Below are positions 8,830 through 27,396 of a DNA stretch of 36,286 nucleotides, piece by piece. Location of the stretch: the IMG/VR virus record IMGVR_UViG_2778261315_000002, one strand, 5' to 3'. Both the position numbers and the translations under genes were made by a program. Within the stretch, counting starts at the first letter, position 1. Each line of letters begins with the position of its first letter. Source of the DNA: a virus (lineage: Duplodnaviria; Heunggongvirae; Uroviricota; Caudoviricetes). Under the pieces are notes generated by a model that was not told the DNA's origin, searched no databases, and saw only the letters and a program-made list of their open reading frames with translations.

Positions 8830-10002
8830 TTACGCGCTGACCTGGCTGGCGAAATTCACCAGGTACTGATCGGTGATGCGCTGGCGCAGCATCAGATTTT
8901 CAAGTGGCGGCACTGGCGTGTAGTCATAGTCGATGGTGAGTTTTCCGGCTTTCAGCGTGTCTTTATCGTTCACCGACTCATCCAGCCAGCAATCACCACC
9001 AATGAGATAGCCCTGACTGACCAGGCTGCGCATTTTGGCGCGGATACCTTCGATAATGTCGCGCGCCAGCGACGGGTTCAGCGGTTTGTCCACCGCCCAC
9101 ATGTGCGCTTCTGCCATTGTGTCCATCAGTACCTGCGCTGTGCGGGTGTAGTTTTCGAAGGCAAAGAGCGGGTCATCACTCAGACAGCGGGAACCCCAGA
9201 AGCGGAAACCGTCCTTGCGCACAAGCGTGGTGACGTCGTTCTGGTTCAGCAGTCCCGCATCTGTTGCCGGGTCCTGCAGATCCCAGAACACATCAGCAGA
9301 AATTCCGGTGACACCGTTCACGCCCACGTTGGACAGGCTTTTGTGCCACCCAGTCTGCTCATCAATTTTGGCGCGCAGACCAAGCGCACGGGCGGTGGCA
9401 TATGCCATTGCTTCGGCGTTCAGCACCGTGTCCCAGCCAGTAAAGTCAGGCCAGATCAGCATCCCTTCGCGCTGGCTAAAGTTTTCACGGTAAGTGATCG
9501 CCTCCTGCACTGTCTTGCAGCCATACGCTGACAGGTAAGCAAACCCACGCAGGCTTTGCGCCACGCTCAGCAATTCAGTCGCAACGGCTTTGTTATCGTG
9601 GCCTGGCACGCCAAGAATGCGCGGTTTAACGCCGAGCTGTGACTGGGCAGATAACAGAGCTTTCATGCCTGTTTTTTTACCTTCAGCAGTCACTGCGCCG
9701 ATGATATTGGTCGTGGTTTCTTCTTCCGTTTCACCCTGCGGCACACGCACAACAACGGTCACGGGTTTTGCCTGGTCAGCGATGGCATCCAGCGAACGGG
9801 CCAGCGTGCCGGACTCACCCGCTTTACCGCTGGCAGTCAGCACATCAGTGATCAGAACAGGTTTGTTAAGAGGAAACATTTTTGCATCGGCATCATCGCC
9901 CGTGCAGACCATGCCCACGATGGCGGTGCTCACCGTGGTAATGGATCGGGTGCCTTCGTTGACTTCAACAACGCGCACCCCGTGGTGGTAATCCTGAGCC
10001 AT
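8830..10002 (-). CDS. FI: Contractile tail sheath protein FI
   Basis: 390 aa ([14 protein letters not shown]...); size and position match P2 gpFI. Confidence 0.85.
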
Positions 10003-10078
10003 AGTGGCGAACCTCCTGATTGGATTAGGCTTCGCCCTATGTTGAAGTGATTGTGCCTGACAAACAGCTAAGCGCAGT

Positions 10079-10096
10079 TGTACCGTTATTCACACA
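10079..10096. promoter_or_regulatory. Putative Ogr-binding dyad (TGT-N12-ACA) of the late promoter upstream of FI
   Basis: TGTACCGTTATTCACACA centred about 85 bp upstream of the FI ATG; flanks nearly identical to the dyad at 22821 (TTGTACCG...CACACAAA). P2 late promoters carry a TGT-N12-ACA element centred near -55. Confidence 0.5.
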
Positions 10097-10144
10097 AAAT
10101 GACGGTATTTGTCTACTTGCAGGGATAATCAAAATAATGCTGAT

Positions 10145-10711
10145 TCAGGGGGATTCATTGCTCTTATTTGCCGGAAATTTTCTATAAATTGTGGAAACAC
10201 CCACATCAAAAATCAGTGCAATACGCTGTCTTGATTCTCCGGCCTCGAGTAAACGCCCAATCTGTGCCCACTGTTCGGTGGTCAACTTAGGACGGCGTCC
10301 ACCTACTCTGCCTTTGGCACGAGCTGCAGCCAGCCCTGCCCTGGTACGTTCAACTATCAGTTCGCGTTCCATTTCAGCCAGGGCACCCATGACATGAAAA
10401 AAGAAACGGCCCATTGGGGTGCTGGTATCAATACTGTCAGTCAGGCTTCGGAAATTCACGCCTTGCTGACGCAACTCTTCTATCAGCGTAACAAGATGCC
10501 GCATACTGCGCCCCAACCTGTCCAGCTTCCAGACAACCAGCGTGTCTCCTGCCGATAGTGTCCTGAGCAGTTTTTTCAACCCTGGTCTGTCGGACTTAGT
10601 GCCACTGATTTTATCCTCAAAAATCCGCTCACATCCCGCGCAGTTCAGTGCATTACGTTGCAAATCGGTGTTCTGGTCATTTGTTGACACGCGTACATAG
10701 CCAATAAGCAT
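10145..10711 (-). CDS. Site-specific DNA invertase, serine recombinase (Hin/Gin/Cin/Pin family)
   Basis: 188 aa from the ATG at 10711 (MLIGYVRVSTNDQ...DRLGRS...C-terminal HTH); near colinear with Hin/Gin as I recall them; the track ORF extends 15 codons upstream to 10756. Confidence 0.9.
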   Translation of the reverse strand: MLIGYVRVSTNDQNTDLQRNALNCAGCERIFEDKISGTKSDRPGLKKLLRTLSAGDTLVVWKLDRLGRSMRHLVTLIEELRQQGVNFRSLTDSIDTSTPMGRFFFHVMGALAEMERELIVERTRAGLAAARAKGRVGGRRPKLTTEQWAQIGRLLEAGESRQRIALIFDVGVSTIYRKFPANKSNESP

Positions 10712-10766
10712 GAGCATCCCCCTGAATAAAAACCGGGGATGATGCCAGTTAACCATTATCTCTGCA

Positions 10767-10792
10767 TTTTCATAAACGTTGGTTTGGGAGAA
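10767..10792. repeat. Invertase crossover site, invertase-proximal (gix/hix-like, 26 bp)
   Basis: Reverse complement TTCTCCCAAACC-AA-CGTTTATGAAAA matches the site at 12453-12478 at 22 of 26 positions (first 14 identical) and fits the Hin-family site architecture of two imperfect inverted half-sites around a 2-bp core. Confidence 0.75.
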
Positions 10793-11365
10793 GGCTCTGC
10801 ATTACCTGTTGGTGTCCCTGTTCCGTGGCCTTCAGCCACTCCGCCAACAGGCTGGCTGAAATGCAATGGTGCGGCTTTTTCTGCTGAAGAATACCCGGAA
10901 CTGGCAAAGGCTTACCCGACAAATAAATTGCCAGATTTACGTGGTGAGTTTATTCGTGGCTGGGATGACGGGCGAGGGATTGATGAGGGGCGCATACTTC
11001 TCAGTTGTCAGAGTTTTGCTTTCCAGGACCATGCGCACGCTCTGCCAACCGGAGTGGGTAATCCGTCAGACCAGATGGAAAGCGATATCTATGCGGTTTT
11101 CAACGATGTACCAGAAATACCCAGTGCGGCCCTGAGTCCATCGTCGTCAGGAACATCATGGGACGCAACCAGTAGGGCAGACAAGGTAATCCTTTATCGC
11201 AAGGACCTTTCACCAACAGGTAATAACAACGCAATAGCGACCGGATTACCACCATTCAGGACTTACAGGGCATCGACCTCAGACGGTGTTACTCATCCGT
11301 CCGTGTACGCATCTGAAACCCGTCCGCGCAACATTGCATTTAACTACATCGTGAGGGCTGCATAA
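10781..11365 (+). CDS. Alternate tail-fibre C-terminal cassette (promoterless; fuses to the constant part of H after inversion); P2 gpH C-terminus-like
   Basis: Frame open from the crossover site; encodes GLGE-GSALPVGVPVPWPSATPPTGWLKCNGAAF...LPDLRGEFIRG...NIAFNYIVRAA, resembling the P2 gpH C-terminal region. The GLGE junction matches LGLGE in H at its crossover site. The ATG at 10739 in the track is probably not a real start. Confidence 0.7.
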   Translation, partial: GLGEGSALPVGVPVPWPSATPPTGWLKCNGAAFSAEEYPELAKAYPTNKLPDLRGEFIRGWDDGRGIDEGRILLSCQSFAFQDHAHALPTGVGNPSDQMESDIYAVFNDVPEIPSAALSPSSSGTSWDATSRADKVILYRKDLSPTGNNNAIATGLPPFRTYRASTSDGVTHPSVYASETRPRNIAFNYIVRAA

Positions 11366-11970
11366 TGGCGAAAGCAAAATTAAACAGTGCGTTTATTGCC
11401 ACCGTGGCAGGAGAAATCACTGTGTACAACTACCGGGGCGACACCCGCGAATACATATCCTCATCGGTTGAGTATCTGCCTGTGGGGGTGGGTATTCCTG
11501 CCAATTCCTGTACCGATGCGCCCGGCACACATAAGGCTGGTTATGCAATCTGCCGTTCTGCAGATTTTAACTCATGGGAATATGTGCCAGACCATCGCGG
11601 TGAAATTGTCTATGGCATCGAAACGGGGGAATCAAAAGAAATTACTGTGCCGGGGGATTACCCTGAAAATACGACCACTTTTGCCCCATTAACGCCATAC
11701 GATAAATGGGATGGTGAGAAATGGGTAACAGATACCGAGGCACAGCATAGCGCCGCAGTAGATGCAGCAGAAGTACAGCGCCAGTCTCTGATTGATGCTG
11801 CTATGGCTTCCATCAGTCTGATTCAGCTGAAATTGCAGGCCGGACGTAAACTGACGCAGGCAGAAACAACCCGCCTTAACGCTGTGCTGGATTACATTGA
11901 CGCGGTGACGGCAATAGATACCAGCACCGCGCCTGATATTATTTGGCCTGTATTCCCTGAGACTGATTAA
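11365..11970 (+). CDS. Tail fibre assembly chaperone (Tfa / Mu U' type), cognate to the alternate fibre cassette
   Basis: 201 aa, start overlapping the cassette stop (TAATG); C-terminal ...DTSTAPDIIWPVFPE typical of Tfa chaperones; opposite orientation to the tail operon, as expected inside an invertible segment. Confidence 0.7.
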   Translation: MAKAKLNSAFIATVAGEITVYNYRGDTREYISSSVEYLPVGVGIPANSCTDAPGTHKAGYAICRSADFNSWEYVPDHRGEIVYGIETGESKEITVPGDYPENTTTFAPLTPYDKWDGEKWVTDTEAQHSAAVDAAEVQRQSLIDAAMASISLIQLKLQAGRKLTQAETTRLNAVLDYIDAVTAIDTSTAPDIIWPVFPETD

Positions 11971-12199
11971 CCTCAATCAGTATTGGTTCGCCTTTCTCAT
12001 TAATTGTTAGCTCCATGCCCTGAGGAATTTCTGTCATAGTAAAAAACCAGTTGTCCTCCGGTAATTCAATAGCCCCGGTCACGTCATGAAGACCGGGGAT
12101 TACTTCAGTCAAAGTAACTGGATTAAACAGGCGCACAATAAACCCTCCATGAAAAAGCATTTGATGATGGTCTGCCGTCGTACATCTGGCAGCGGGCAT
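11939..12199 (-). CDS. Hypothetical small protein downstream of the current H variable end (possible chaperone for the expressed fibre variant)
   Basis: 86-aa ORF overlapping the 3' end of H, true start uncertain; no recognisable motif; assigned by position only. Confidence 0.3.
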   Translation of the reverse strand: MPAARCTTADHHQMLFHGGFIVRLFNPVTLTEVIPGLHDVTGAIELPEDNWFFTMTEIPQGMELTINEKGEPILIEVNQSQGIQAK

Positions 12200-13514
12200 A
12201 AAAGCCGGTATTTGTTACCTGATCATCCACGATCATTGAAACGTGAACATTATTAGGTGTGCTCTCGTAATCCGTTCTTATTCTTTCTGCGATACTGATA
12301 AAACGTGAAAGTTTAGGCAGTGCAATTGGGTAAACGACTTTAGCCAGTCCATTATCATTAGATCCACCGGTTCCAAATACTTCTATTGCACCATCTGACC
12401 AGCGTACCCATGCACCATTGGCATTAGCTCCTCGCTGAATGACATATCTGGCTTCTCCCAAACCAAGGTATGTGAGAAGACCAGCTACATCCTTTCCACT
12501 CAAATTAGTCAGCGTATTGTCCAGCGGTTGTTTACCTGCCAGTGCATTAAGCATTGTCGTGGCAAAGTTCGGGTCATTCCCCAGTGCCGCCGCCAGTTCG
12601 TTCAGTGTATCCAGTGCCGCAGGTGCAGAACCCACCATTCCTGCAATCGCCGATTTCACAAAAGCCGTAGTGGCAATCTGTGTATTATTGACCGACTGCG
12701 CCGCCGTGGGGGCTGTTGGCGTTCCGGTGAGTGCCGGACTCGACAGCGGCGCTTTCAGTGCCAGCGCATTGTTAATGGTGGTACTGAATTTCGGATCATT
12801 GTTAATGGCTACGGCTATTTCTTTCAGCGTGTCCAGCGTGGCTGGCGCACCATTAATAAGAGCCGTCAGTGCCGCCTGAACAAATGCGGTGGTCGCAAGC
12901 TGCGTGGTATTATTCCCCGCCGCTGGCGTTGGCGCTTTGGGGGTTCCGGTAAACGTTGGACTTTCTTTGGGTGCATACTGTGAATGCGGGTCCGGCGCGG
13001 CAAGATGTTTTGCCATCAGGTCATCCACGTACACCTTCAGCTCCAGTGCCTTGTCATCCACATACTTGCGGGTTGCCAGCACTACAGCAGGGTCGATTTT
13101 CAGGGTGATATTGTCCGTGCTGCTGGTAATCAGCACCATGCGCACGGTCTGGGTACGCCCGCTGCCTTCAGCCAGTTGCGGCTTATAGCTTTCCGGGCAG
13201 TTGCCCACGGCAATCAATGCCCCGGACTCATCAAACAGGCCCACTTCACGTATCCACCAACCGCCCTCGTTTTCAGGGATCACCTGTTCGGCAATAATCT
13301 GGCTGCTGTTCTGCGGGTCGATATAGAGCATATTCAGCGCAGCCCGGCGTTTCTCATTTACCAATGCTGTCTGCTTTGCGTCCGGCGTTGGCAATGTTCC
13401 GCCGCCATCGCCGACCGCCATATGGGTAATTTTTAAAGGCACACCGAGCGCGGCGGCGCTGGCAAGTTTCGCCGCGCCAATATCCGTCAGCAGGGTATAA
13501 AATTTTGTGCTCAT
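12123..13514 (-). CDS. H: Tail fibre protein H (constant N-terminal part plus the currently expressed variable C-terminus)
   Basis: 463 aa; N-terminus MSTKFYTLLTDIGAAKLA...MAVGDGGG resembles P2 gpH; two tandem ~55-aa ATTAFV...LDTL.E.A.A...DP.F.TT..NALA.K.PL repeats; the C-terminus after LGLGE differs from the P2-like cassette. Confidence 0.85.
   Translation of the reverse strand: MSTKFYTLLTDIGAAKLASAAALGVPLKITHMAVGDGGGTLPTPDAKQTALVNEKRRAALNMLYIDPQNSSQIIAEQVIPENEGGWWIREVGLFDESGALIAVGNCPESYKPQLAEGSGRTQTVRMVLITSSTDNITLKIDPAVVLATRKYVDDKALELKVYVDDLMAKHLAAPDPHSQYAPKESPTFTGTPKAPTPAAGNNTTQLATTAFVQAALTALINGAPATLDTLKEIAVAINNDPKFSTTINNALALKAPLSSPALTGTPTAPTAAQSVNNTQIATTAFVKSAIAGMVGSAPAALDTLNELAAALGNDPNFATTMLNALAGKQPLDNTLTNLSGKDVAGLLTYLGLGEARYVIQRGANANGAWVRWSDGAIEVFGTGGSNDNGLAKVVYPIALPKLSRFISIAERIRTDYESTPNNVHVSMIVDDQVTNTGFYARCQMYDGRPSSNAFSWRVYCAPV
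12453..12478. repeat. Invertase crossover site inside tail-fibre gene H (gix/hix-like, 26 bp)
   Basis: TTCTCCCAAACC-AA-GGTATGTGAGAA; inverted partner of 10767-10792; lies in the H reading frame at ...LTYLGLGE|ARYV..., about 110 codons before the H stop. Confidence 0.75.
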
Positions 13515-14116
13515 GGATTCACTCTCATTGTGTCAATAACATGGACCGCCCCGCCTTCATGCGCGGTGCCACCGGAAATAATTGTTTCGTTGATATACGG
13601 ATAGATCGTGATTTCTTCGCCAAGATAGCTTGCGGCTCCCACCCAATGCGGGCCGCTGGTCTGCAGATTGATGGACATGCCGATCATGTGACGGCTACAT
13701 GGTTTGGCATCGCTTATCAGTCGCTCAAGTTCCAGATAGGTATCTTCAGTGATGCCCTGGTCCTGCACGCCGATATCCAGGCGAAACGTGCCCGGTGCCT
13801 CTCCGGTCTGCCACCACTCAATAATGCGGATCAGAAAGCCGAACGGCTCCACCACCCGCCGCACGGCACTGGTGGTCCCTTTATGCTGATGAATATAAAA
13901 AGCATCCTTCACCACCTGGCGCTTGACACTTTCTGTCCAGCCCTCGTCCCAGCGATCCACAGAGAACGCCCAGGCGAGATAAGGCAGGAAACTGACCGGA
14001 CAGGTTGCCGGATTCCACAAGTCACGCAGCGGCACCTGCAGATCAGAAATCCCGCTGCAGGTTTGCGCCAGTCGTCGCTCCAGTGAAGTTGAACCCGGTG
14101 GCAGCAGACTATTCAT
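13511..14116 (-). CDS. I: Baseplate assembly protein I
   Basis: 201 aa between J and H; P2 gpI position. Confidence 0.75.
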   Translation of the reverse strand: MNSLLPPGSTSLERRLAQTCSGISDLQVPLRDLWNPATCPVSFLPYLAWAFSVDRWDEGWTESVKRQVVKDAFYIHQHKGTTSAVRRVVEPFGFLIRIIEWWQTGEAPGTFRLDIGVQDQGITEDTYLELERLISDAKPCSRHMIGMSINLQTSGPHWVGAASYLGEEITIYPYINETIISGGTAHEGGAVHVIDTMRVNP

Positions 14117-15017
14117 CCGTTCCTCCGTTGGTCACGCTCCACTGCGTACATGATGCCGCCTGCGTTTTGTTCAGAACCACATCCGCCAGCGGAGAAGCCA
14201 GTTCCACACGTTGAACACCCTCAACATGCAGCGCGGCAAAAATAGCACTACGGCGAATATCCCGACCAAGACGCGTCTGACTGGCGATGTACTTCTGCAG
14301 GCTGGCTTTTGCCGCTGCCATTACCGGCTCTGCTTCCGGTCCCGGATAGAGAAAAATGGTGGCTTCCACGCGATACGGGATGATTTCTGCGCTGCGAACC
14401 GTCAGACGGTCAGCCACCGGGCGGACGTTCTCACTGTTCAGAGCTTTTTCCACCACGTCCAGCAGATCTTTTTCTGCAGTTCCATCGCCTTCGCGGCTAA
14501 GGACAGTCAGCAACACTTCTGCAGGTGCCGGGCTGGTTGCACTGGCATCCGCCACCCGACCGTCGGCGCTTCGGGCATGAAATTCATAAGCTGCAGTTGG
14601 CCCCGCAACTGAAAGCCCTTCAAAGGCTGCAGGCACACGCAGGCGTAACGCTTCATCACTTTCCATCACAGCCGCAACGGGCGGTACAGCGTCATTATTA
14701 GCAGGCGTCACCGTCAGGCGTTTCACGTTGTAATTGGCAGCGAGCTGGTCCAGATCGCTCCCTATGGCATAAGCCACCATCACCGCCAGCGCGGCTTCGT
14801 TAATGCGCTGGCGCAGGAGCAACTCACGATAAGCGTTCTCCTGCAGCAATTTGGTAACGGGTTCAGATTCCAGTTCCAGCGTACGCATCACTGCTTCCTG
14901 CTCATCTTTCGGATGAAGCGCCACAAATTCTGCCTTGCGTTCGGCAAGCAGCGTCTCAAAGTCCGGCACATCCACAATCTGCGGCGCAGGTAACTGCGAA
15001 AGGTCAATCACTGCCAT
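14109..15017 (-). CDS. J: Baseplate assembly protein J
   Basis: 302 aa from the ATG at 15017 (MAVIDLSQLPAPQ...); matches the P2 gpJ length; the track ORF extends 13 codons upstream. Confidence 0.8.
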   Translation of the reverse strand: MAVIDLSQLPAPQIVDVPDFETLLAERKAEFVALHPKDEQEAVMRTLELESEPVTKLLQENAYRELLLRQRINEAALAVMVAYAIGSDLDQLAANYNVKRLTVTPANNDAVPPVAAVMESDEALRLRVPAAFEGLSVAGPTAAYEFHARSADGRVADASATSPAPAEVLLTVLSREGDGTAEKDLLDVVEKALNSENVRPVADRLTVRSAEIIPYRVEATIFLYPGPEAEPVMAAAKASLQKYIASQTRLGRDIRRSAIFAALHVEGVQRVELASPLADVVLNKTQAASCTQWSVTNGGTDE

Positions 15018-15363
15018 TCTCTGCTCCTGTTGATACGGAAAGGGAAACAGGCACACCGTTATTACGCCGCCCGGTCAGCTCCACCACCATAGAACCGTCA
15101 AAGTTGTTGTTGATGGTAATGGAATCCAGCGTCAGCCGTGGCTCCCAGCGACTCAGCGCCACATACACTGCCGACATGACCTGCAGTCGTAACGCCGGAT
15201 TTTGTGGCTGATCTATCAGTGCCGACAGCAGGGAACCATATTCCCGACGGGCAATGCGGCTACCCTGCGGCGTCAGCAGAATGTCCCGCACTGACTGGCG
15301 CAGATGGTCAATATCAGTAATGGCTTTACCGCTGGTATTGTTCATCCCGCTATAAAGCGTCAT
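15004..15363 (-). CDS. W: Baseplate protein W
   Basis: 119 aa; size and position match P2 gpW. Confidence 0.8.
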   Translation of the reverse strand: MTLYSGMNNTSGKAITDIDHLRQSVRDILLTPQGSRIARREYGSLLSALIDQPQNPALRLQVMSAVYVALSRWEPRLTLDSITINNNFDGSMVVELTGRRNNGVPVSLSVSTGAENGSD

Positions 15364-15938
15364 ACCGGGCCTCCGGTTGTGTCGCCGCCTTTCAGAACGC
15401 CAGTATGCTGATGCGCATCAACCACGATCCCGTTAGAACTCATCGCACCGCCGCCCTGGGTAACGCCACCATTGATCGCAACTTCGCTGTTAATGCGCGT
15501 GCGGTCAGCCTCCAGTACAAACTCACTGGTTTTCATGGTGATGTTGTCAGCGGCCTCAATGACCATTGATTTGATGCCCCTGACATACCAGCGCCCGGTG
15601 GCGGGTTCGTATTCAAACCAGCCACCGTCAGGATGTTCTGTCACGCAGACGTCCGCCGACGTTGACGGTGGAGCGAACTGATTCGAATAGATGGCGGGCA
15701 GCGCAAACGCGGTTTCCAGATTGCCTCCCAGACTCAGCAGCACTACCTGCTCACCTTCCGATGGTCGCCACCATGTCCGGGCATTCCCGGCACGCAGCGT
15801 CAGCCAGCTGATCCAGTTGGTTTCAAGCTCGCCCGTTTTCACCCGGCAAAGCCAATTCTCCCGGTCCACTTCGGTGACTACACCAGTGCGGATCAGGTTG
15901 GTGATAAGGCGCATGATTTCGGTTAATTGTGCGTTCAT
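15360..15938 (-). CDS. V: Baseplate spike / assembly protein V
   Basis: 192 aa; N-terminus MNAQLTEIMRLITNLIRTGVV resembles P2 gpV. Confidence 0.8.
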   Translation of the reverse strand: MNAQLTEIMRLITNLIRTGVVTEVDRENWLCRVKTGELETNWISWLTLRAGNARTWWRPSEGEQVVLLSLGGNLETAFALPAIYSNQFAPPSTSADVCVTEHPDGGWFEYEPATGRWYVRGIKSMVIEAADNITMKTSEFVLEADRTRINSEVAINGGVTQGGGAMSSNGIVVDAHQHTGVLKGGDTTGGPV

Positions 15939-15941
15939 AGG

Positions 15942-15971
15942 CTAATCCTGCACGAAAATGCACAGGATTAG
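15942..15971. repeat. Perfect 9-bp inverted repeat (ctaatcctg ... caggattag) between the TIR-like cargo gene and V
   Basis: Read directly from the sequence just upstream of the V start; no T-run follows on either strand, so it is not a classical intrinsic terminator. Confidence 0.4.
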
Positions 15972-16005
15972 TTAGCAAGGAAGATTGTGTTAACTACTAA
16001 ACAAT

Positions 16006-16821
16006 TCAGAGAGATGCTGTTTTGTTGAAGTAATCCTTCAATAACTCCATCTTAAAGATGACCTGGAGTTTACAACCGGGAAATGAATCATTTACAGTTA
16101 CAGTCATCCCCAGGAACTCAGACTGAACCTTTATCAAATCATTAGGTATTTTGTGAAGAATATCTCTAACTTCTTTCTCTACCGTTGTGGGAACCAAGTC
16201 AAAACTAACAATAAACTCACTTGACGAATTATGCTGAACTTTAGACTTTATTTCCTTTAAAGCTTTTTTAGACAAGTTGAGAATATCAAAAACTTTCTCA
16301 AGATTATCAAATAAAACATACCTGCGTTCAAAATCAACAACCTTAGCTGCTAATTCATTAAAATCAGTTCTGAGCCGCCCCCTAGCACCCACAGCTGATT
16401 GCAAAGACCTAAATGCAAACTCCAATTTAGATGCCATATTGGCCTCAATTGCATTCAGATTACAAATAGGTTGAGGCAACTCTTTAAAAACCATGCCCGA
16501 ATGGCAGAAAGGAAGTGTAGGAATATCTCCCAAACCAGCATTCTGATTTAGGGTATTTCTTATCCAGACAGCCCCTAATTCAAAGCTAATCCAACTTCTT
16601 TTCACAGAATTAGGACTGATTAAATATATAGCCGCAATACAATTAACAAGGCCATCTTCTATTACTTTTAGGAAATTTTGCCCAGCCTTAATCGTTTCTC
16701 CATCTGAAGATACAAAAACGCTGACAAATCCAGCAAACTCATCTTCGATTGCATCTTTAATGATTTTTGCCAATTCTTTTTCTTCAGTAATATGAGATAA
16801 AAAAATCAACTTCTCAGACAT
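16006..16821 (-). CDS. Cargo protein with N-terminal TIR-like domain and uncharacterised ~160-aa C-terminal domain (candidate anti-phage defence gene)
   Basis: 271 aa from the ATG at 16821 (AGAGAG Shine-Dalgarno; the track ORF starts at a TTG at 16839). N-terminus KLIFLSH...VSVFVSSDGETIKAGQNFL...IAAIYLISPNSVKRSWISFELG fits the TIR pattern. Region is markedly AT-rich and interrupts the S-V junction, which is contiguous in P2. Confidence 0.55.
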   Translation of the reverse strand: MSEKLIFLSHITEEKELAKIIKDAIEDEFAGFVSVFVSSDGETIKAGQNFLKVIEDGLVNCIAAIYLISPNSVKRSWISFELGAVWIRNTLNQNAGLGDIPTLPFCHSGMVFKELPQPICNLNAIEANMASKLEFAFRSLQSAVGARGRLRTDFNELAAKVVDFERRYVLFDNLEKVFDILNLSKKALKEIKSKVQHNSSSEFIVSFDLVPTTVEKEVRDILHKIPNDLIKVQSEFLGMTVTVNDSFPGCKLQVIFKMELLKDYFNKTASL

Positions 16822-16937
16822 CACATACTCTCTAACCAATTGATAGATTTACAATTTAGCAAGAAAGAAAATGTGATACTAAGAAGAAGATCATAAAATC
16901 AGTATCTTCCCCAAAGAATCTTTCTCTAATCAGCACC

Positions 16938-25720: not shown

Positions 25721-26404
25721 TTAATTTGAAGAATCTTTTTTGAAGGTATCCAAATACCCTCTCAAATCAAAATCTTTATTACCCCTAAATTTTTCAACAT
25801 CTTTCTTGTCTGCATCTCTTTGTTCTCTAATCTTCTTGTTTAGTTTTTCAATCAAAGATTGTCTTTCGGCCTCTATTTCTTTTATTTTTTCAAAATGGAG
25901 TTTCGCCTTTCGTGCTTCTTCAGTCTTTACAATTATTTCATAACAAACACACAAAAGAAAACAAACCGTGGAAACGGTCATCCCTGCATCCACAACTATG
26001 AAGTAACCAATATCAACATTTTCTTTTATCTTATCTAAAGGCACAATCAAACATCCAAGAACCATAAAAAGCCCCACCACAAGATAAATAAAATTAATAG
26101 AGTTACGATAACTCAATTTAAAATATTCATCTTTTTGAGCTTCAAATAATTCCACCACATTACTTGGAGCCTTACTGTTTAACTCAATATCTTTAATCTT
26201 ATCCTGATAATCCACAAATCTTTTTACCAGCAAACCAATTAAAATAGCACCAATTAAAGATAATGCTTTAGATATAAGAGAACCAATTTCTAACAATATA
26301 CCAGTCTGATTGTAAATCCCATAAAAAACAGAAGCGAAAAGTCCCCCTATCAAGATAGATAAGCTCAACTGTATAATAAAACGCTCTATTCTTTTATTAA
26401 TCAT
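25721..26404 (-). CDS. Cargo operon gene 2: small integral membrane protein (4 predicted TM helices, Lys/Glu-rich coiled-coil tail); candidate defence or abortive-infection effector
   Basis: 227 aa from the ATG at 26404, which overlaps the upstream stop (ATGA); hydrophobic stretches FIIQLSLSILIGGLFASVFYGIY, ILLEIGSLISKALSLIGAILIGLLV, FIYLVVGLFMVLGCLIVPL, GYFIVVDAGMTVSTVCFLLCVCYEIIV; AT-rich. Confidence 0.5.
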   Translation of the reverse strand: MINKRIERFIIQLSLSILIGGLFASVFYGIYNQTGILLEIGSLISKALSLIGAILIGLLVKRFVDYQDKIKDIELNSKAPSNVVELFEAQKDEYFKLSYRNSINFIYLVVGLFMVLGCLIVPLDKIKENVDIGYFIVVDAGMTVSTVCFLLCVCYEIIVKTEEARKAKLHFEKIKEIEAERQSLIEKLNKKIREQRDADKKDVEKFRGNKDFDLRGYLDTFKKDSSN

Positions 26405-27396
26405 GGATTTATCACCCCAGCATCCAACAACCTTAACAACCATTCAACCATTTCATCACAAACACTATCAACAACTGGTAAACCCTTACTATATTCAATG
26501 CTAACATTGTCTTTTATTTGAATCTCATCATTTTTCAAAATCCCTGCACCTTTTAACTCAATAGTCAACATTTCATCCCTGTTATCAATTAGCCCCTCGG
26601 TTATCTTCCGAAGTAAATCTTGCTCATTATCACTGGCTCGATATTTATAACCAATAGAAATATCAATTGTAAGGTGTTCCTTTATTTCTGTATCAGGGGT
26701 ACTGTTTTTACGCAATTCTTCAACACGATGCTCACCAATTAAAGAACGCAATAACTCACTAGCAGCATCGTCAACGCCATTACCATTATATGTCAACGGC
26801 AGTTTTAAACTAACATTTTTAATGTTATTTCTTCTCAAGAATTCATTACTAATGCTTAAATTATTTGCCTGCAAAACAATAAAGTTTTCAACATCTACTC
26901 GTAGATTTTCCTTTAAAATAAAATTAATGTAATTTTCAATGTCTTTTATTCTTATTGCTCTACTTTGTAAAATCACGACATGATTCTTAACAACACCAAT
27001 ATAGGCAAAACTATCCAAATATTCTTTAACATCGCCACCCGCAATTCTGAAAGCCTCATATTCCAATTTCGGATTTTTATATTCCGTAACATCAAATACT
27101 GGAATACTTCCGCCAGGCTCTATGTACACAATTTCTGCAAAGAACATTCCGTTACGTTCAAATGAATTTGACATAACCATATGAGCATGCGTTGCCACAT
27201 CAGGATCAGAGTCCTTCGTTTCTAGAAAATGAACTCTATCTTGAACAGTACGAAACTTATGAGTCACAATCTCAGATAATCTGCTTTGTAAGTCTGATGT
27301 TAAAAGTGCATCTTTTTTAGGAAGCATAACTGCATGTCTGTAATGCAGTGCCTTGATTTTGGTATTGTTAGCAGCCATATAATTTCCAGTTTCCAT
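26401..27396 (-). CDS. Cargo operon gene 1: soluble protein of unknown function (candidate defence sensor or enzyme)
   Basis: 331-aa ORF (alternative ATG 6 codons in); no motif I can assign; AT-rich; translationally coupled to the downstream membrane protein. Confidence 0.5.
   Translation of the reverse strand: METGNYMAANNTKIKALHYRHAVMLPKKDALLTSDLQSRLSEIVTHKFRTVQDRVHFLETKDSDPDVATHAHMVMSNSFERNGMFFAEIVYIEPGGSIPVFDVTEYKNPKLEYEAFRIAGGDVKEYLDSFAYIGVVKNHVVILQSRAIRIKDIENYINFILKENLRVDVENFIVLQANNLSISNEFLRRNNIKNVSLKLPLTYNGNGVDDAASELLRSLIGEHRVEELRKNSTPDTEIKEHLTIDISIGYKYRASDNEQDLLRKITEGLIDNRDEMLTIELKGAGILKNDEIQIKDNVSIEYSKGLPVVDSVCDEMVEWLLRLLDAGVINP

What the first reader, a model, noticed from the sequence alone, without database searches (positions are those of the whole stretch)
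10145..12478. Invertase-driven tail-fibre switch: two C-terminal fibre cassettes flanked by inverted 26-bp crossover sites
A Hin/Gin-family invertase sits beside a 1.7-kb segment bounded by inverted sites (TTCTCCCAAACC-AA-GGTATGTGAGAA in H; TTCTCCCAAACC-AA-CGTTTATGAAAA reverse-complemented next to the invertase; 22 of 26 identical). The site in H falls in frame at ...LTYLGLGE|, and the opposite-strand cassette begins ...GLGE|GSALPVGVPVPWP, so inversion would swap the last ~110 aa of H for a ~190-aa P2-gpH-like receptor-binding end with its own Tfa chaperone. In the orientation captured here the P2-like end is silent and a different, shorter end is expressed, followed by an unusually small candidate chaperone ORF.
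Basis: partly seen in the sequence, partly recalled or inferred. Interest (0 to 1): 0.55.

Follow-up and report, generated by a model that had tools for sequence, protein, structure and literature searches.

The report
Invertible tail-fibre tip switch, P2-type prophage
A P2-type prophage of E. coli carries a classic Pin/Gin-type DNA invertase that flips a 1.7-kb segment to give its tail fibre one of two different receptor-binding tips; this is a well-known kind of switch, and its only unusual part is a 65-residue half-size helper protein that goes with the shorter tip.

Summary

**The switch.** Two 26-bp sites (10767-10792 and 12453-12478; 22/26 identical, inner half-site plus core 14/14) lie in inverted orientation around a 1,684-bp segment. 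An intact 188-aa serine invertase sits beside it, 86% identical to e14 PinE. The invertase-proximal site is identical to the e14 site next to pinE.

**The two fibres.** In silico inversion turns H (463 aa) into an in-frame 544-aa H'.

**Evidence of flipping.** Both orientations exist in complete E. coli genomes: 20 as in the window and 36 flipped. Two flipped copies are 100% identical to the window over 3.6 kb. Two pairs of strains (64/61, and W/HBUT-L) have loci that differ only by an exact inversion at these sites.

- The silent 190-aa end is a tail-collar-domain tip, not a P2-gpH-like one. Only the constant 354 aa resemble gpH.
- The expressed 109-aa tip has the gp53 / R-pyocin "foot" fold.
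- The 65-aa ORF is a conserved family homologous to the N-terminal, fibre-binding domain of Tfa chaperones. It lacks their conserved C-terminal domain.

**Verdict.** This is an ordinary member of the Mu G / P1 C / e14 P class, already seen to invert in P2-like prophages. Interest is low; the mini-Tfa is a modest lead.

The parts
10145..10711 (-). DNA invertase gene (188 aa, Pin/Gin/Cin/Hin type small serine recombinase; catalytic Ser9 in YVRVSTNDQ)
   Evidence: Pfam Resolvase E 3e-53 plus HTH_7 E 1e-15, and PHROG 125 'DNA invertase' E 2e-100. It is 86% identical to e14 PinE. It aligns end to end with Mu Gin structures 3UJ3/4M6F, E 3e-92.
10627..10690 (-). Candidate Fis-dependent recombinational enhancer inside the 5' end of the invertase gene. 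Two G-N13-C 15-mers (GTGTCAACAAATGAC and GCGCGGGATGTGAGC) lie 49 bp apart, with ATTTG and TAATG between them. INFERRED, not shown.
   Evidence: The first 15-mer lies about 96 bp from the centre of the proximal crossover site; Hin has about 100 bp and AT-rich ATTTA/TAATG between its Fis sites (PMC3798978). Codons 5-30 show more synonymous-site identity among pin/gin/cin than the rest of the gene (6/21 vs 9/91, Fisher p 0.035). The degenerate Fis motif alone is not discriminating.
10767..10792 (-). Invertase-proximal crossover site (read on - strand: TTCTCCCAAACC AA CGTTTATGAAAA)
   Evidence: It is identical over 26/26 bases to the site next to pinE in E. coli K-12 e14.
10781..12464 (.). Invertible segment (1,684 bp between the central dinucleotides)
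   Evidence: Flipping exactly this interval reproduces, at 100.0% over 3,601 nt, the locus in strains Combat2C1 and 23CRST001.
10781..11365 (+). Silent alternative C-terminal cassette of H. It gives 190 variable aa after ...GLGE and carries a tail-collar domain. The ATG at 10739 that makes a 208-aa ORF is an artefact of the silent orientation.
   Evidence: Pfam Collar PF07484 E 1.6e-15, and PHROG 523/3100 tail (collar) fibre protein. In-frame fusion gives a 544-aa H'. RefSeq annotates a 1,635-nt (544-aa) fibre gene in flipped genomes. It is not similar to P2 gpH.
11365..11970 (+). Tail fibre assembly protein (Tfa, 201 aa) belonging to the silent cassette. Its start overlaps the cassette stop (TAATG).
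   Evidence: Pfam Caudo_TAP E 2e-30 and PHROG 105 E 2e-96; sequence.
11939..12136 (-). 65-aa ORF downstream of the expressed tip: a 'mini-Tfa', homologous only to the N-terminal (fibre-binding) domain of Tfa proteins. It has a GTG start with GGAGG 7 nt upstream, overlaps the H stop by 14 nt, and overlaps the 3' end of the convergent Tfa gene by 32 nt.
   Evidence: Conserved family of about 57-73 aa in Escherichia, Enterobacter, Salmonella, Citrobacter, Hafnia, Xenorhabdus and Erwinia. hhalign gives probability 93.6%, E 2e-7 to the N-terminal half of short Caudo_TAP proteins. It is 34% identical (E 3e-13) to the N-terminus of Cronobacter phage JK004 gene_1 and 45% identical (E 1e-15) to P0168; both are Caudo_TAP proteins. 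It has no Pfam hit of its own.
12123..12452 (-). Expressed variable C-terminal tip of H (109 aa), an all-beta gp53 / R-pyocin 'foot'-like knob
12453..12478 (+). Crossover site inside H (TTCTCCCAAACC AA GGTATGTGAGAA), encoding ...LTYLGLGE
12453..13514 (-). Constant N-terminal part of tail fibre protein H (354 aa), P2 gpH-like
   Evidence: Pfam Phage_tail_fib E 2e-65. It is 50% identical to residues 1-364 of P2 gpH, E 4e-92.

Best explanation
This is a two-state, invertase-driven host-range switch in an apparently complete P2-family (Peduoviridae) prophage.

**Layout.** The tail-fibre gene H has a constant 354-aa part outside a 1,684-bp invertible segment. The 26-bp crossover site lies in frame at ...GLGE. 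The whole cassette sits where P2 has G and Z/fun, between H and the sheath gene FI.

**Mechanism.** A Pin/Gin-type small serine recombinase is encoded next to the segment. It binds the two inverted 26-bp sites. Most likely it is activated by a Fis-bound enhancer inside the 5' end of its own gene (inferred). It would cut at the central AA/TT dinucleotide, rotate one half of the tetramer by 180 degrees and religate. This step follows established Hin/Gin knowledge.

**Window orientation.** H ends in a 109-aa gp53 / R-pyocin-foot-like knob. A translationally coupled 65-aa protein follows. I read it as a minimal chaperone or tip partner that corresponds to the fibre-binding N-domain of Tfa proteins (inferred).

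**Flipped orientation.** H ends in a 190-aa tail-collar-domain tip followed by a full-length Tfa.

**Consequence.** Lysogen populations would therefore release virions with two receptor specificities. The different specificity is inferred from Mu, P1 and carotovoricin, not tested here.
For: **Sites**
- The inverted 26-bp sites are 22/26 identical, with an identical inner half-site and identical AA core.
- The proximal site is 26/26 identical to the e14 site next to pinE.
- The e14 P-segment repeats reported as TTGGTTTGGGAGAAGG / CCTTCTCCCAAACCAA (PMC12529663) match: the first is present exactly and the second at 15/16.

**Recombinase**
- Full length with the catalytic Ser; 86% identical to PinE and aligned end to end with Gin.

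**Coding consequence**
- The fusion is in frame in both states.

**Inversion in nature**
- 20 complete E. coli genomes hold the locus as in the window and 36 hold it flipped.
- The flipped form is 100.0% identical over 3,601 nt in two genomes.
- Strains 64 and 61 have 6,601-nt loci that are identical except for an exact flip with breakpoints inside the shared 16 bp.
- E. coli W and HBUT-L show the same thing, even with an IS3 inside the segment.

**Cassette identities**

**Precedent**
- Phase-variable inversions in P2-like prophages of EPEC were confirmed by sequencing (PMC4272514).
- An invertase is often seen at the P2 Z/fun hotspot (bioRxiv 10.1101/2024.10.15.618418).
Against: - No read-level data exist for the genome this window comes from, so ongoing switching in this particular host is inferred.
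- The enhancer is not demonstrated. The degenerate Fis motif hits many places, and the synonymous-site signal is weak (p 0.035).
- Promoter and terminator scans are at chance level.
- Receptor specificities of the two tips are unknown.
- The small ORF lacks the conserved Tfa C-terminal domain and fails Pfam Caudo_TAP, so its chaperone role is not established.
Confidence: 0.9

Rival explanations
1. The switch mainly serves the host, not the phage. Inversion would create chimeric fibre proteins that sit on the cell surface and block adsorption of other phages, as reported for the e14 P segment (StfE2 against T2).
For: PMC12529663 shows that PinQ/PinE inversion of the e14 P segment blocks T2 adsorption. 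That segment has the same core repeats as here. The silent cassettes here also form ORFs with their own ATG (208 aa at 10739-11365; 126-127-aa 'hypothetical proteins' in flipped genomes).
Against: Here the prophage looks complete: capsid, terminase, portal, tail, lysis, repressor and integrase genes are all present. The switch sits in frame in the structural fibre gene of the late operon. Each end has its own downstream partner gene, which is the arrangement of a working virion host-range switch. e14 is a defective remnant.
Confidence: 0.07
2. The arrangement is a frozen relic. The two orientations in databases reflect old events or RecA-mediated recombination between the repeats, and the invertase no longer acts.
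For: There is no read-level evidence from this genome. The enhancer is only inferred.
Against: The invertase ORF is intact and close to active PinE and Gin. Only 14-16 bp are identical between the sites, which is very short for RecA. Strain pairs that are identical over 5.3-6.6 kb differ solely by the flip, so the events are recent. The breakpoints fall exactly in canonical sites.
Confidence: 0.03
3. The 65-aa ORF is not a chaperone. It could be a non-functional leftover of a Tfa gene, or a small virion or tip accessory protein with another role.
For: It lacks the conserved C-terminal Tfa domain that is thought to drive fibre trimerisation (PMC9608196). It has no Pfam hit. The single-sequence model is unreliable (pLDDT 51). 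In E. coli W an IS3 separates it from the tip.
Against: The length and sequence are conserved across at least seven genera, with 16 invariant columns. It has a strong SD and translational coupling to H. It always travels with the tip: 106 E. coli genomes cover at least 80% of the tip+ORF query, and the pair also occurs in phage S164 and, by consecutive locus tags, in Enterobacter asburiae. Its N-domain homology to genuine Tfa proteins is significant.
Confidence: 0.35

Closest known systems
e14 P segment / PinE of E. coli K-12 (stfP-tfaP / tfaE-stfE'-pinE)
   Same: - Same gene layout: invertase, silent cassette, Tfa, convergent partner gene, expressed tip.
- The invertase is 86% identical.
- The invertase-proximal site is 26/26 identical, and the core repeats are the same.
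   Different: - e14 is a defective lambdoid remnant, while this is an apparently complete P2-family prophage.
- The cassettes differ. Here a gp53/pyocin-foot-like tip with a 65-aa partner replaces one of the Stf/Tfa pairs.
Phage Mu G segment / Gin (Sc + Sv-U / Sv'-U')
   Same: - A constant fibre N-terminus lies outside the segment and two alternative C-termini, each with a downstream partner gene, lie inside it.
- The invertase lies next to the segment.
- The recombinase aligns end to end with Gin (E 3e-92).
   Different: - The segment is 1.7 kb here against 3 kb in Mu.
- The tips are different.
- One partner gene is reduced to an N-domain-only protein.
- The host phage is of P2 type.
Invertible tail-fibre loci in P2-like prophages (EPEC E2348/69) and the invertase at the P2 Z/fun hotspot
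   Same: - Same phage family and same place in the genome.
- Phase variation by inversion was shown by sequencing in EPEC, including a simple two-variant locus (PMC4272514; bioRxiv 10.1101/2024.10.15.618418).
- Related isolated phages (Cartapus, 500465-1, pro483, S164) carry the same invertase module with other cassettes.
   Different: I did not establish whether the EPEC loci carry this cassette pair. Among 50,697 phage records the tip and small-ORF pair is found together only in S164, at about 36% and 66% identity.
Tfa tail-fibre assembly proteins (Pfam Caudo_TAP; Mu U, P2 G, lambda Tfa)
   Same: The 65-aa ORF is homologous to the N-terminal, fibre-binding domain of short Tfa proteins and occupies the same position just after the fibre gene.
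   Different: It lacks the conserved C-terminal helical domain altogether and fails the Pfam model.
AP22 gp53 and R-type pyocin tail-fibre 'foot' domains
   Different: Sequence identity is only 14-21%. The Pfam Gp53-like_C score is below the cut-off. The receptor is unknown.

Membership tests
Fis-dependent DNA invertase systems (Hin/Gin/Cin/Pin) | Small (about 180-195 aa) serine recombinase with an N-terminal catalytic domain carrying the Ser nucleophile and a C-terminal HTH | tested here: met
   188 aa; Resolvase plus HTH_7. YVRVS9TNDQ is conserved. 86% identical to PinE and aligned over residues 1-184 with Gin structures.
Fis-dependent DNA invertase systems (Hin/Gin/Cin/Pin) | Two 26-bp imperfectly palindromic crossover sites in inverted orientation with the same asymmetric central dinucleotide | tested here: met
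   TTCTCCCAAACC-AA-GGTATGTGAGAA and TTCTCCCAAACC-AA-CGTTTATGAAAA lie on opposite strands. One is identical to an e14 site.
Fis-dependent DNA invertase systems (Hin/Gin/Cin/Pin) | Recombinational enhancer in cis with two Fis sites about 48 bp apart, usually in the 5' part of the invertase gene | tested here: inconclusive
   Two G-N13-C 15-mers lie 49 bp apart at +28 and +77 of the gene, with ATTTG and TAATG between them, about 96 bp from the site centre (compare Hin in PMC3798978). Synonymous-site conservation is raised in codons 5-30 (p 0.035). The degenerate motif is not specific, and there are no binding data.
Fis-dependent DNA invertase systems (Hin/Gin/Cin/Pin) | Invertase-specific residues that contact Fis or the enhancer (Hin Gln151/Arg154/Leu155; basic residues at 47, 48 and 51) | tested here: met
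   By inspection of the translation and the Gin alignment, Q150, R153, L154 and K46, K47, R50 are present. The one-residue numbering offset from Hin comes from my own knowledge. The residue list is from PMC3798978.
Fis-dependent DNA invertase systems (Hin/Gin/Cin/Pin) | The segment is actually found in both orientations, with breakpoints at the sites | tested here: met
   20 genomes as in the window versus 36 flipped. Exact-flip pairs: strains 64/61 and W/HBUT-L. This is comparative evidence, not reads from this genome.
Phage tail-fibre C-terminal cassette switches (Mu G, P1 C, e14 P type) | Constant N-terminal fibre part outside the segment, with the crossover site inside the ORF and in frame with two alternative C-terminal cassettes | tested here: met
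   354 constant aa; 463-aa H versus 544-aa H'. RefSeq annotates a 1,392-nt fibre gene (463 aa) in window-orientation genomes and a 1,635-nt one (544 aa) in flipped genomes.
Phage tail-fibre C-terminal cassette switches (Mu G, P1 C, e14 P type) | Each cassette is followed by its own assembly/chaperone gene | tested here: inconclusive
   The long cassette has a genuine Caudo_TAP gene. The short cassette has only a 65-aa homologue of the Tfa N-domain, whose function is untested.
Phage tail-fibre C-terminal cassette switches (Mu G, P1 C, e14 P type) | The two orientations give different host ranges | not testable with these tools
   This needs phage locked in each orientation. The tips have unrelated folds and families, which makes different receptors likely.
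Tfa chaperones (Pfam PF02413 Caudo_TAP), for the 65-aa ORF | Match to the family model above the gathering score, including the conserved C-terminal helical domain | tested here: not met
   There is no Pfam hit. The protein ends where the conserved C-terminal half of short Tfa proteins begins.
Tfa chaperones (Pfam PF02413 Caudo_TAP), for the 65-aa ORF | N-terminal fibre-binding domain homologous to that of genuine Tfa proteins, with the gene directly downstream of the fibre gene | tested here: met
   hhalign probability 93.6%. BLASTP E 3e-13 to JK004 gene_1 and E 1e-15 to P0168, both of which carry Caudo_TAP. The ORF overlaps the H stop codon.
gp53-like / R-pyocin foot receptor-binding tips, for the expressed end | Pfam Gp53-like_C (PF21882) above its cut-off | tested here: not met
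   19.0 bits against a cut-off of 24.9.
gp53-like / R-pyocin foot receptor-binding tips, for the expressed end | The same fold as solved members | tested here: met

The most novel reading that the evidence does not exclude
The 65-aa protein would define a class of minimal, single-domain tail-fibre partners ('mini-Tfa'). It keeps only the fibre-binding N-domain of Tfa chaperones and has lost the conserved C-terminal oligomerisation domain. Even so, it would be needed for folding of gp53 / pyocin-foot-like tips, or stay bound to them. That would mean the conserved Tfa C-domain is dispensable for this tip class.
Probability: 0.4. Interest if true: 0.45.

Novelty: new member of a known kind. Interest (0 to 1): 0.25.

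Why it matters
The finding matters little as a discovery. Invertase-driven tail-fibre switching is textbook biology (Mu, P1, e14) and has already been seen in P2-like prophages.

It is useful for annotation. RefSeq labels the silent cassettes as free-standing 'phage tail protein' or 'hypothetical protein' genes. Assemblies of the same strain can differ by this flip, which should not be read as misassembly or divergence.

The tip and mini-Tfa pair occurs in about 2% of complete E. coli genomes. It is a compact module that could interest people engineering receptor-binding proteins for phages or tailocins. It also offers a simple test of which Tfa domain is really needed.

Tried and rejected
- **Third crossover site (shufflon or Min-like multi-inversion).** Half-site searches found only the two sites beside fibre genes. 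The other hits lack a second half-site. Rejected.
- **The 65-aa ORF as a recent truncation of a 130-147-aa Tfa at this locus.** Rejected, because homologues in many genera have the same length. It is not similar to the neighbouring-type Tfa proteins of Cartapus or 23CRST025 by BLASTP.
- **The silent end as P2-gpH-like.** Rejected. The Tfa is also not significantly similar to P2 G by BLASTP.
- **Structure of the 65-aa protein.**
  - The single-sequence model was unusable (pLDDT 51).
  - A profile search of PDB sequences gave only chance hits.
- **Genomic context of distant small-ORF homologues.** I used phage records and E. coli genomes instead.
- **Giant repetitive proteins matching the small ORF.** I judged these to be score inflation by repeats.
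- **Promoter and terminator consensus scans.** These were at chance level.
- **Xanthomonas phage DIBBI tip homologue.** It has no small ORF after it, so it is uninformative.
- **First literature search on the enhancer.** It returned irrelevant papers.

Full report
**1.

The best inverted repeat in 9900-13600 has arms at 10767-10793 and 12452-12478 (27 nt, 85% complementary, 1658 nt apart). Read as 26-mers, the sites are:
- TTCTCCCAAACC-AA-GGTATGTGAGAA on the + strand, inside H
- TTCTCCCAAACC-AA-CGTTTATGAAAA on the - strand, next to the invertase

They are 22/26 identical. The inner half-site and the central AA are fully identical. A 26-mer match with up to 3 mismatches is expected 0.00 times by chance. 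No third usable site exists in the window.

The ORFs are as described:
- an invertase at 10145-10711(-)
- a fibre gene H at 12123-13514(-), 463 aa
- an opposite-strand cassette ending at 11365
- a Tfa gene at 11365-11970(+)
- a small ORF after H

**2. What the parts are**

*Invertase.* The 188-aa protein has Resolvase plus HTH_7 domains and matches PHROG 'DNA invertase'. It is 86% identical to PinE of e14 and aligns over residues 1-184 with the Mu Gin crystal-structure sequences (E 3e-92). The catalytic serine is present. So are the residues that PMC3798978 lists as specific to Fis-dependent invertases (my inspection).

*Constant part of H.* The 354 constant aa have the tail-collar-fibre N-terminal domain and are 50% identical to residues 1-364 of P2 gpH.

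*Prophage.* The surrounding window is a complete-looking P2-family prophage inserted next to ybjL. It has tail, baseplate, lysis, capsid, terminase, replication, CI and integrase genes. The invertase module sits where P2 has G and Z/fun, between H and FI. This agrees with a preprint noting invertases at that hotspot.

**3. Inversion is in frame and has happened in nature**

Flipping 10781-12464 in silico turns H into an uninterrupted 544-aa protein...LTYLGLGE-GSALPVGVPVPWP.... I searched both versions against 5,426 complete E. coli genomes.
- 20 genomes hold at least 80% of the locus as in the window and 36 hold it flipped.
- The flipped construct is matched at 100.0% over all 3,601 nt in strains Combat2C1 and 23CRST001.
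- Strains 64 and 61 (same study, same coordinates) have 6,601-nt loci that are identical except for an exact inversion. Its breakpoints lie within the 16 bp shared by the two sites.
- E. coli W and strain HBUT-L share an IS3 insertion inside the segment and again differ only by an exact flip of the now 2.8-kb segment.
- Strain NCTC8623 carries two related copies, one in each state.

This is strong comparative evidence that the sites are used. It is not read-level evidence for the source genome of this window.

**4. Relation to known switches**

The invertase-proximal site is 26/26 identical to the site next to pinE in K-12 e14. The 16-bp repeats reported for the e14 P segment (PMC12529663) are present here, one exactly and one at 15/16. 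The layout mirrors e14 (stfP-tfaP / tfaE-stfE'-pinE) and Mu (Sc, Sv-U, U'-Sv', gin).

Phase variation by inversion in P2-like prophages was shown experimentally in EPEC (PMC4272514). Isolated Peduoviridae such as Cartapus, 500465-1, pro483 and S164 carry the same invertase with other cassettes. The kind is therefore known.

**5. The enhancer is only inferred**

In the first 90 nt of the gene there are two G-N13-C 15-mers 49 bp apart, at window 10676-10690 and 10627-10641. ATTTG and TAATG lie between them, and the first 15-mer is about 96 bp from the proximal site centre. This resembles the Hin arrangement described in PMC3798978.

Among pin, gin, cin and two P2-type invertase genes, codons 5-30 keep identical codons more often than the rest of the gene (6/21 vs 9/91, p 0.035). 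The degenerate Fis motif also hits elsewhere, so I rate this feature inconclusive.

**6. The two tips, and a correction**

The silent 190-aa end carries a tail-collar domain (PF07484) and matches collar-type fibre ends in many phages. It has no significant similarity to any part of P2 gpH, so 'P2-gpH-like end' is wrong.

**7. The small ORF**

*Gene structure.* Its real start is the GTG at 12136 (MRLFNP...). GGAGG lies 7 nt upstream, and the ORF overlaps the H stop by 14 nt.

*Family.* It belongs to a conserved family of about 57-73 aa in at least seven enterobacterial genera, with 16 invariant positions. The family is small: 26 clusters at 50% identity in 1.84 billion representatives.

*Homology.* It is homologous to the N-terminal part of genuine Tfa proteins:
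- 34% identity to Cronobacter phage JK004 gene_1 (E 3e-13)
- 45% identity to P0168 (E 1e-15); both proteins carry Caudo_TAP
- hhalign probability 93.6% against short Tfa proteins

According to work summarised in PMC9608196, the variable N-domain of Tfa binds the fibre and the conserved C-domain drives trimerisation. This protein has only the former.

*Linkage to the tip.* It travels with the tip as a unit. 117 of 5,426 E. coli genomes match the tip+ORF query, and 106 of them cover at least 80% of it. The pair also occurs as a silent cassette in phage S164 and, by consecutive locus tags, in Enterobacter asburiae.

I could not get a usable structure for it. I therefore read it as a minimal chaperone or tip partner, with moderate confidence.

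**8. Verdict**

This is a correct, well-read finding of an ordinary system: a new member of the Pin/Gin tail-fibre switch class in a P2-type prophage. The only mildly novel element is the N-domain-only Tfa relative paired with a gp53/pyocin-foot-like tip.

Noticed in passing
window 16006-16821 (-): A TIR-domain ORF (Pfam TIR_2 E 5e-8; PADLOC PDC-S66 E 3e-7) is inserted between baseplate gene V and the virion morphogenesis gene. It is probably an anti-phage cargo gene of the prophage. RefSeq calls the Combat2C1 counterpart a 'toll/interleukin-1 receptor domain-containing protein'.
   Followed up: partly
window 25721-26443 (-) and 26401-27396 (-): Two overlapping ORFs (240 and 331 aa) lie just after the portal gene and have no Pfam or PADLOC hit. 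This is the position of the classic P2 cargo hotspot (old/tin in P2, from my own knowledge), so they are candidate unknown defence genes.
   Followed up: partly
L012 2368-3545 (E. coli W, NC_017664.1) and L013 1443-2620 (HBUT-L): An IS3-family element is inserted inside the invertible segment, between the expressed tip and the small ORF. The enlarged 2.8-kb segment is still found in both orientations.
   Followed up: yes
window 10739-11365 (+); flipped genomes, e.g. L004 20743-21123: RefSeq annotates the silent cassettes as stand-alone genes ('phage tail protein', or 126-127-aa 'hypothetical protein'). These start at an ATG in the spacer between the invertase gene and the site. They are most likely annotation artefacts of the silent orientation.
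   Followed up: partly
window 11939-11970: The convergent Tfa gene and the small ORF overlap by 32 nt at their 3' ends, so the middle of the segment has no intergenic space.
   Followed up: no
window 10731-10750 (-): A terminator-like hairpin followed by TTTATT lies between the proximal crossover site and the invertase start. It could limit read-through from the fibre operon into the invertase gene. The scan as a whole is at chance level.
   Followed up: no
proteins P0153, P0160, P0171, P0172: Giant repetitive surface-type proteins (DUF285/Spiralin-domain, SpaA, Cna_B repeats) match the 65-aa ORF with up to 15 stretches and a summed E of 2e-32. Each repeat is only about 29% identical (E 0.002). 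I treat this as score inflation by repeats.
   Followed up: partly
NZ_LR134234.1 (NCTC8623) 13370-16922 and 4934115-4937667: One genome holds two related copies of this fibre-switch locus, one in each orientation. Invertases could therefore act in trans on each other's segments, as reported for PinE/PinQ/PinR on e14.
   Followed up: no
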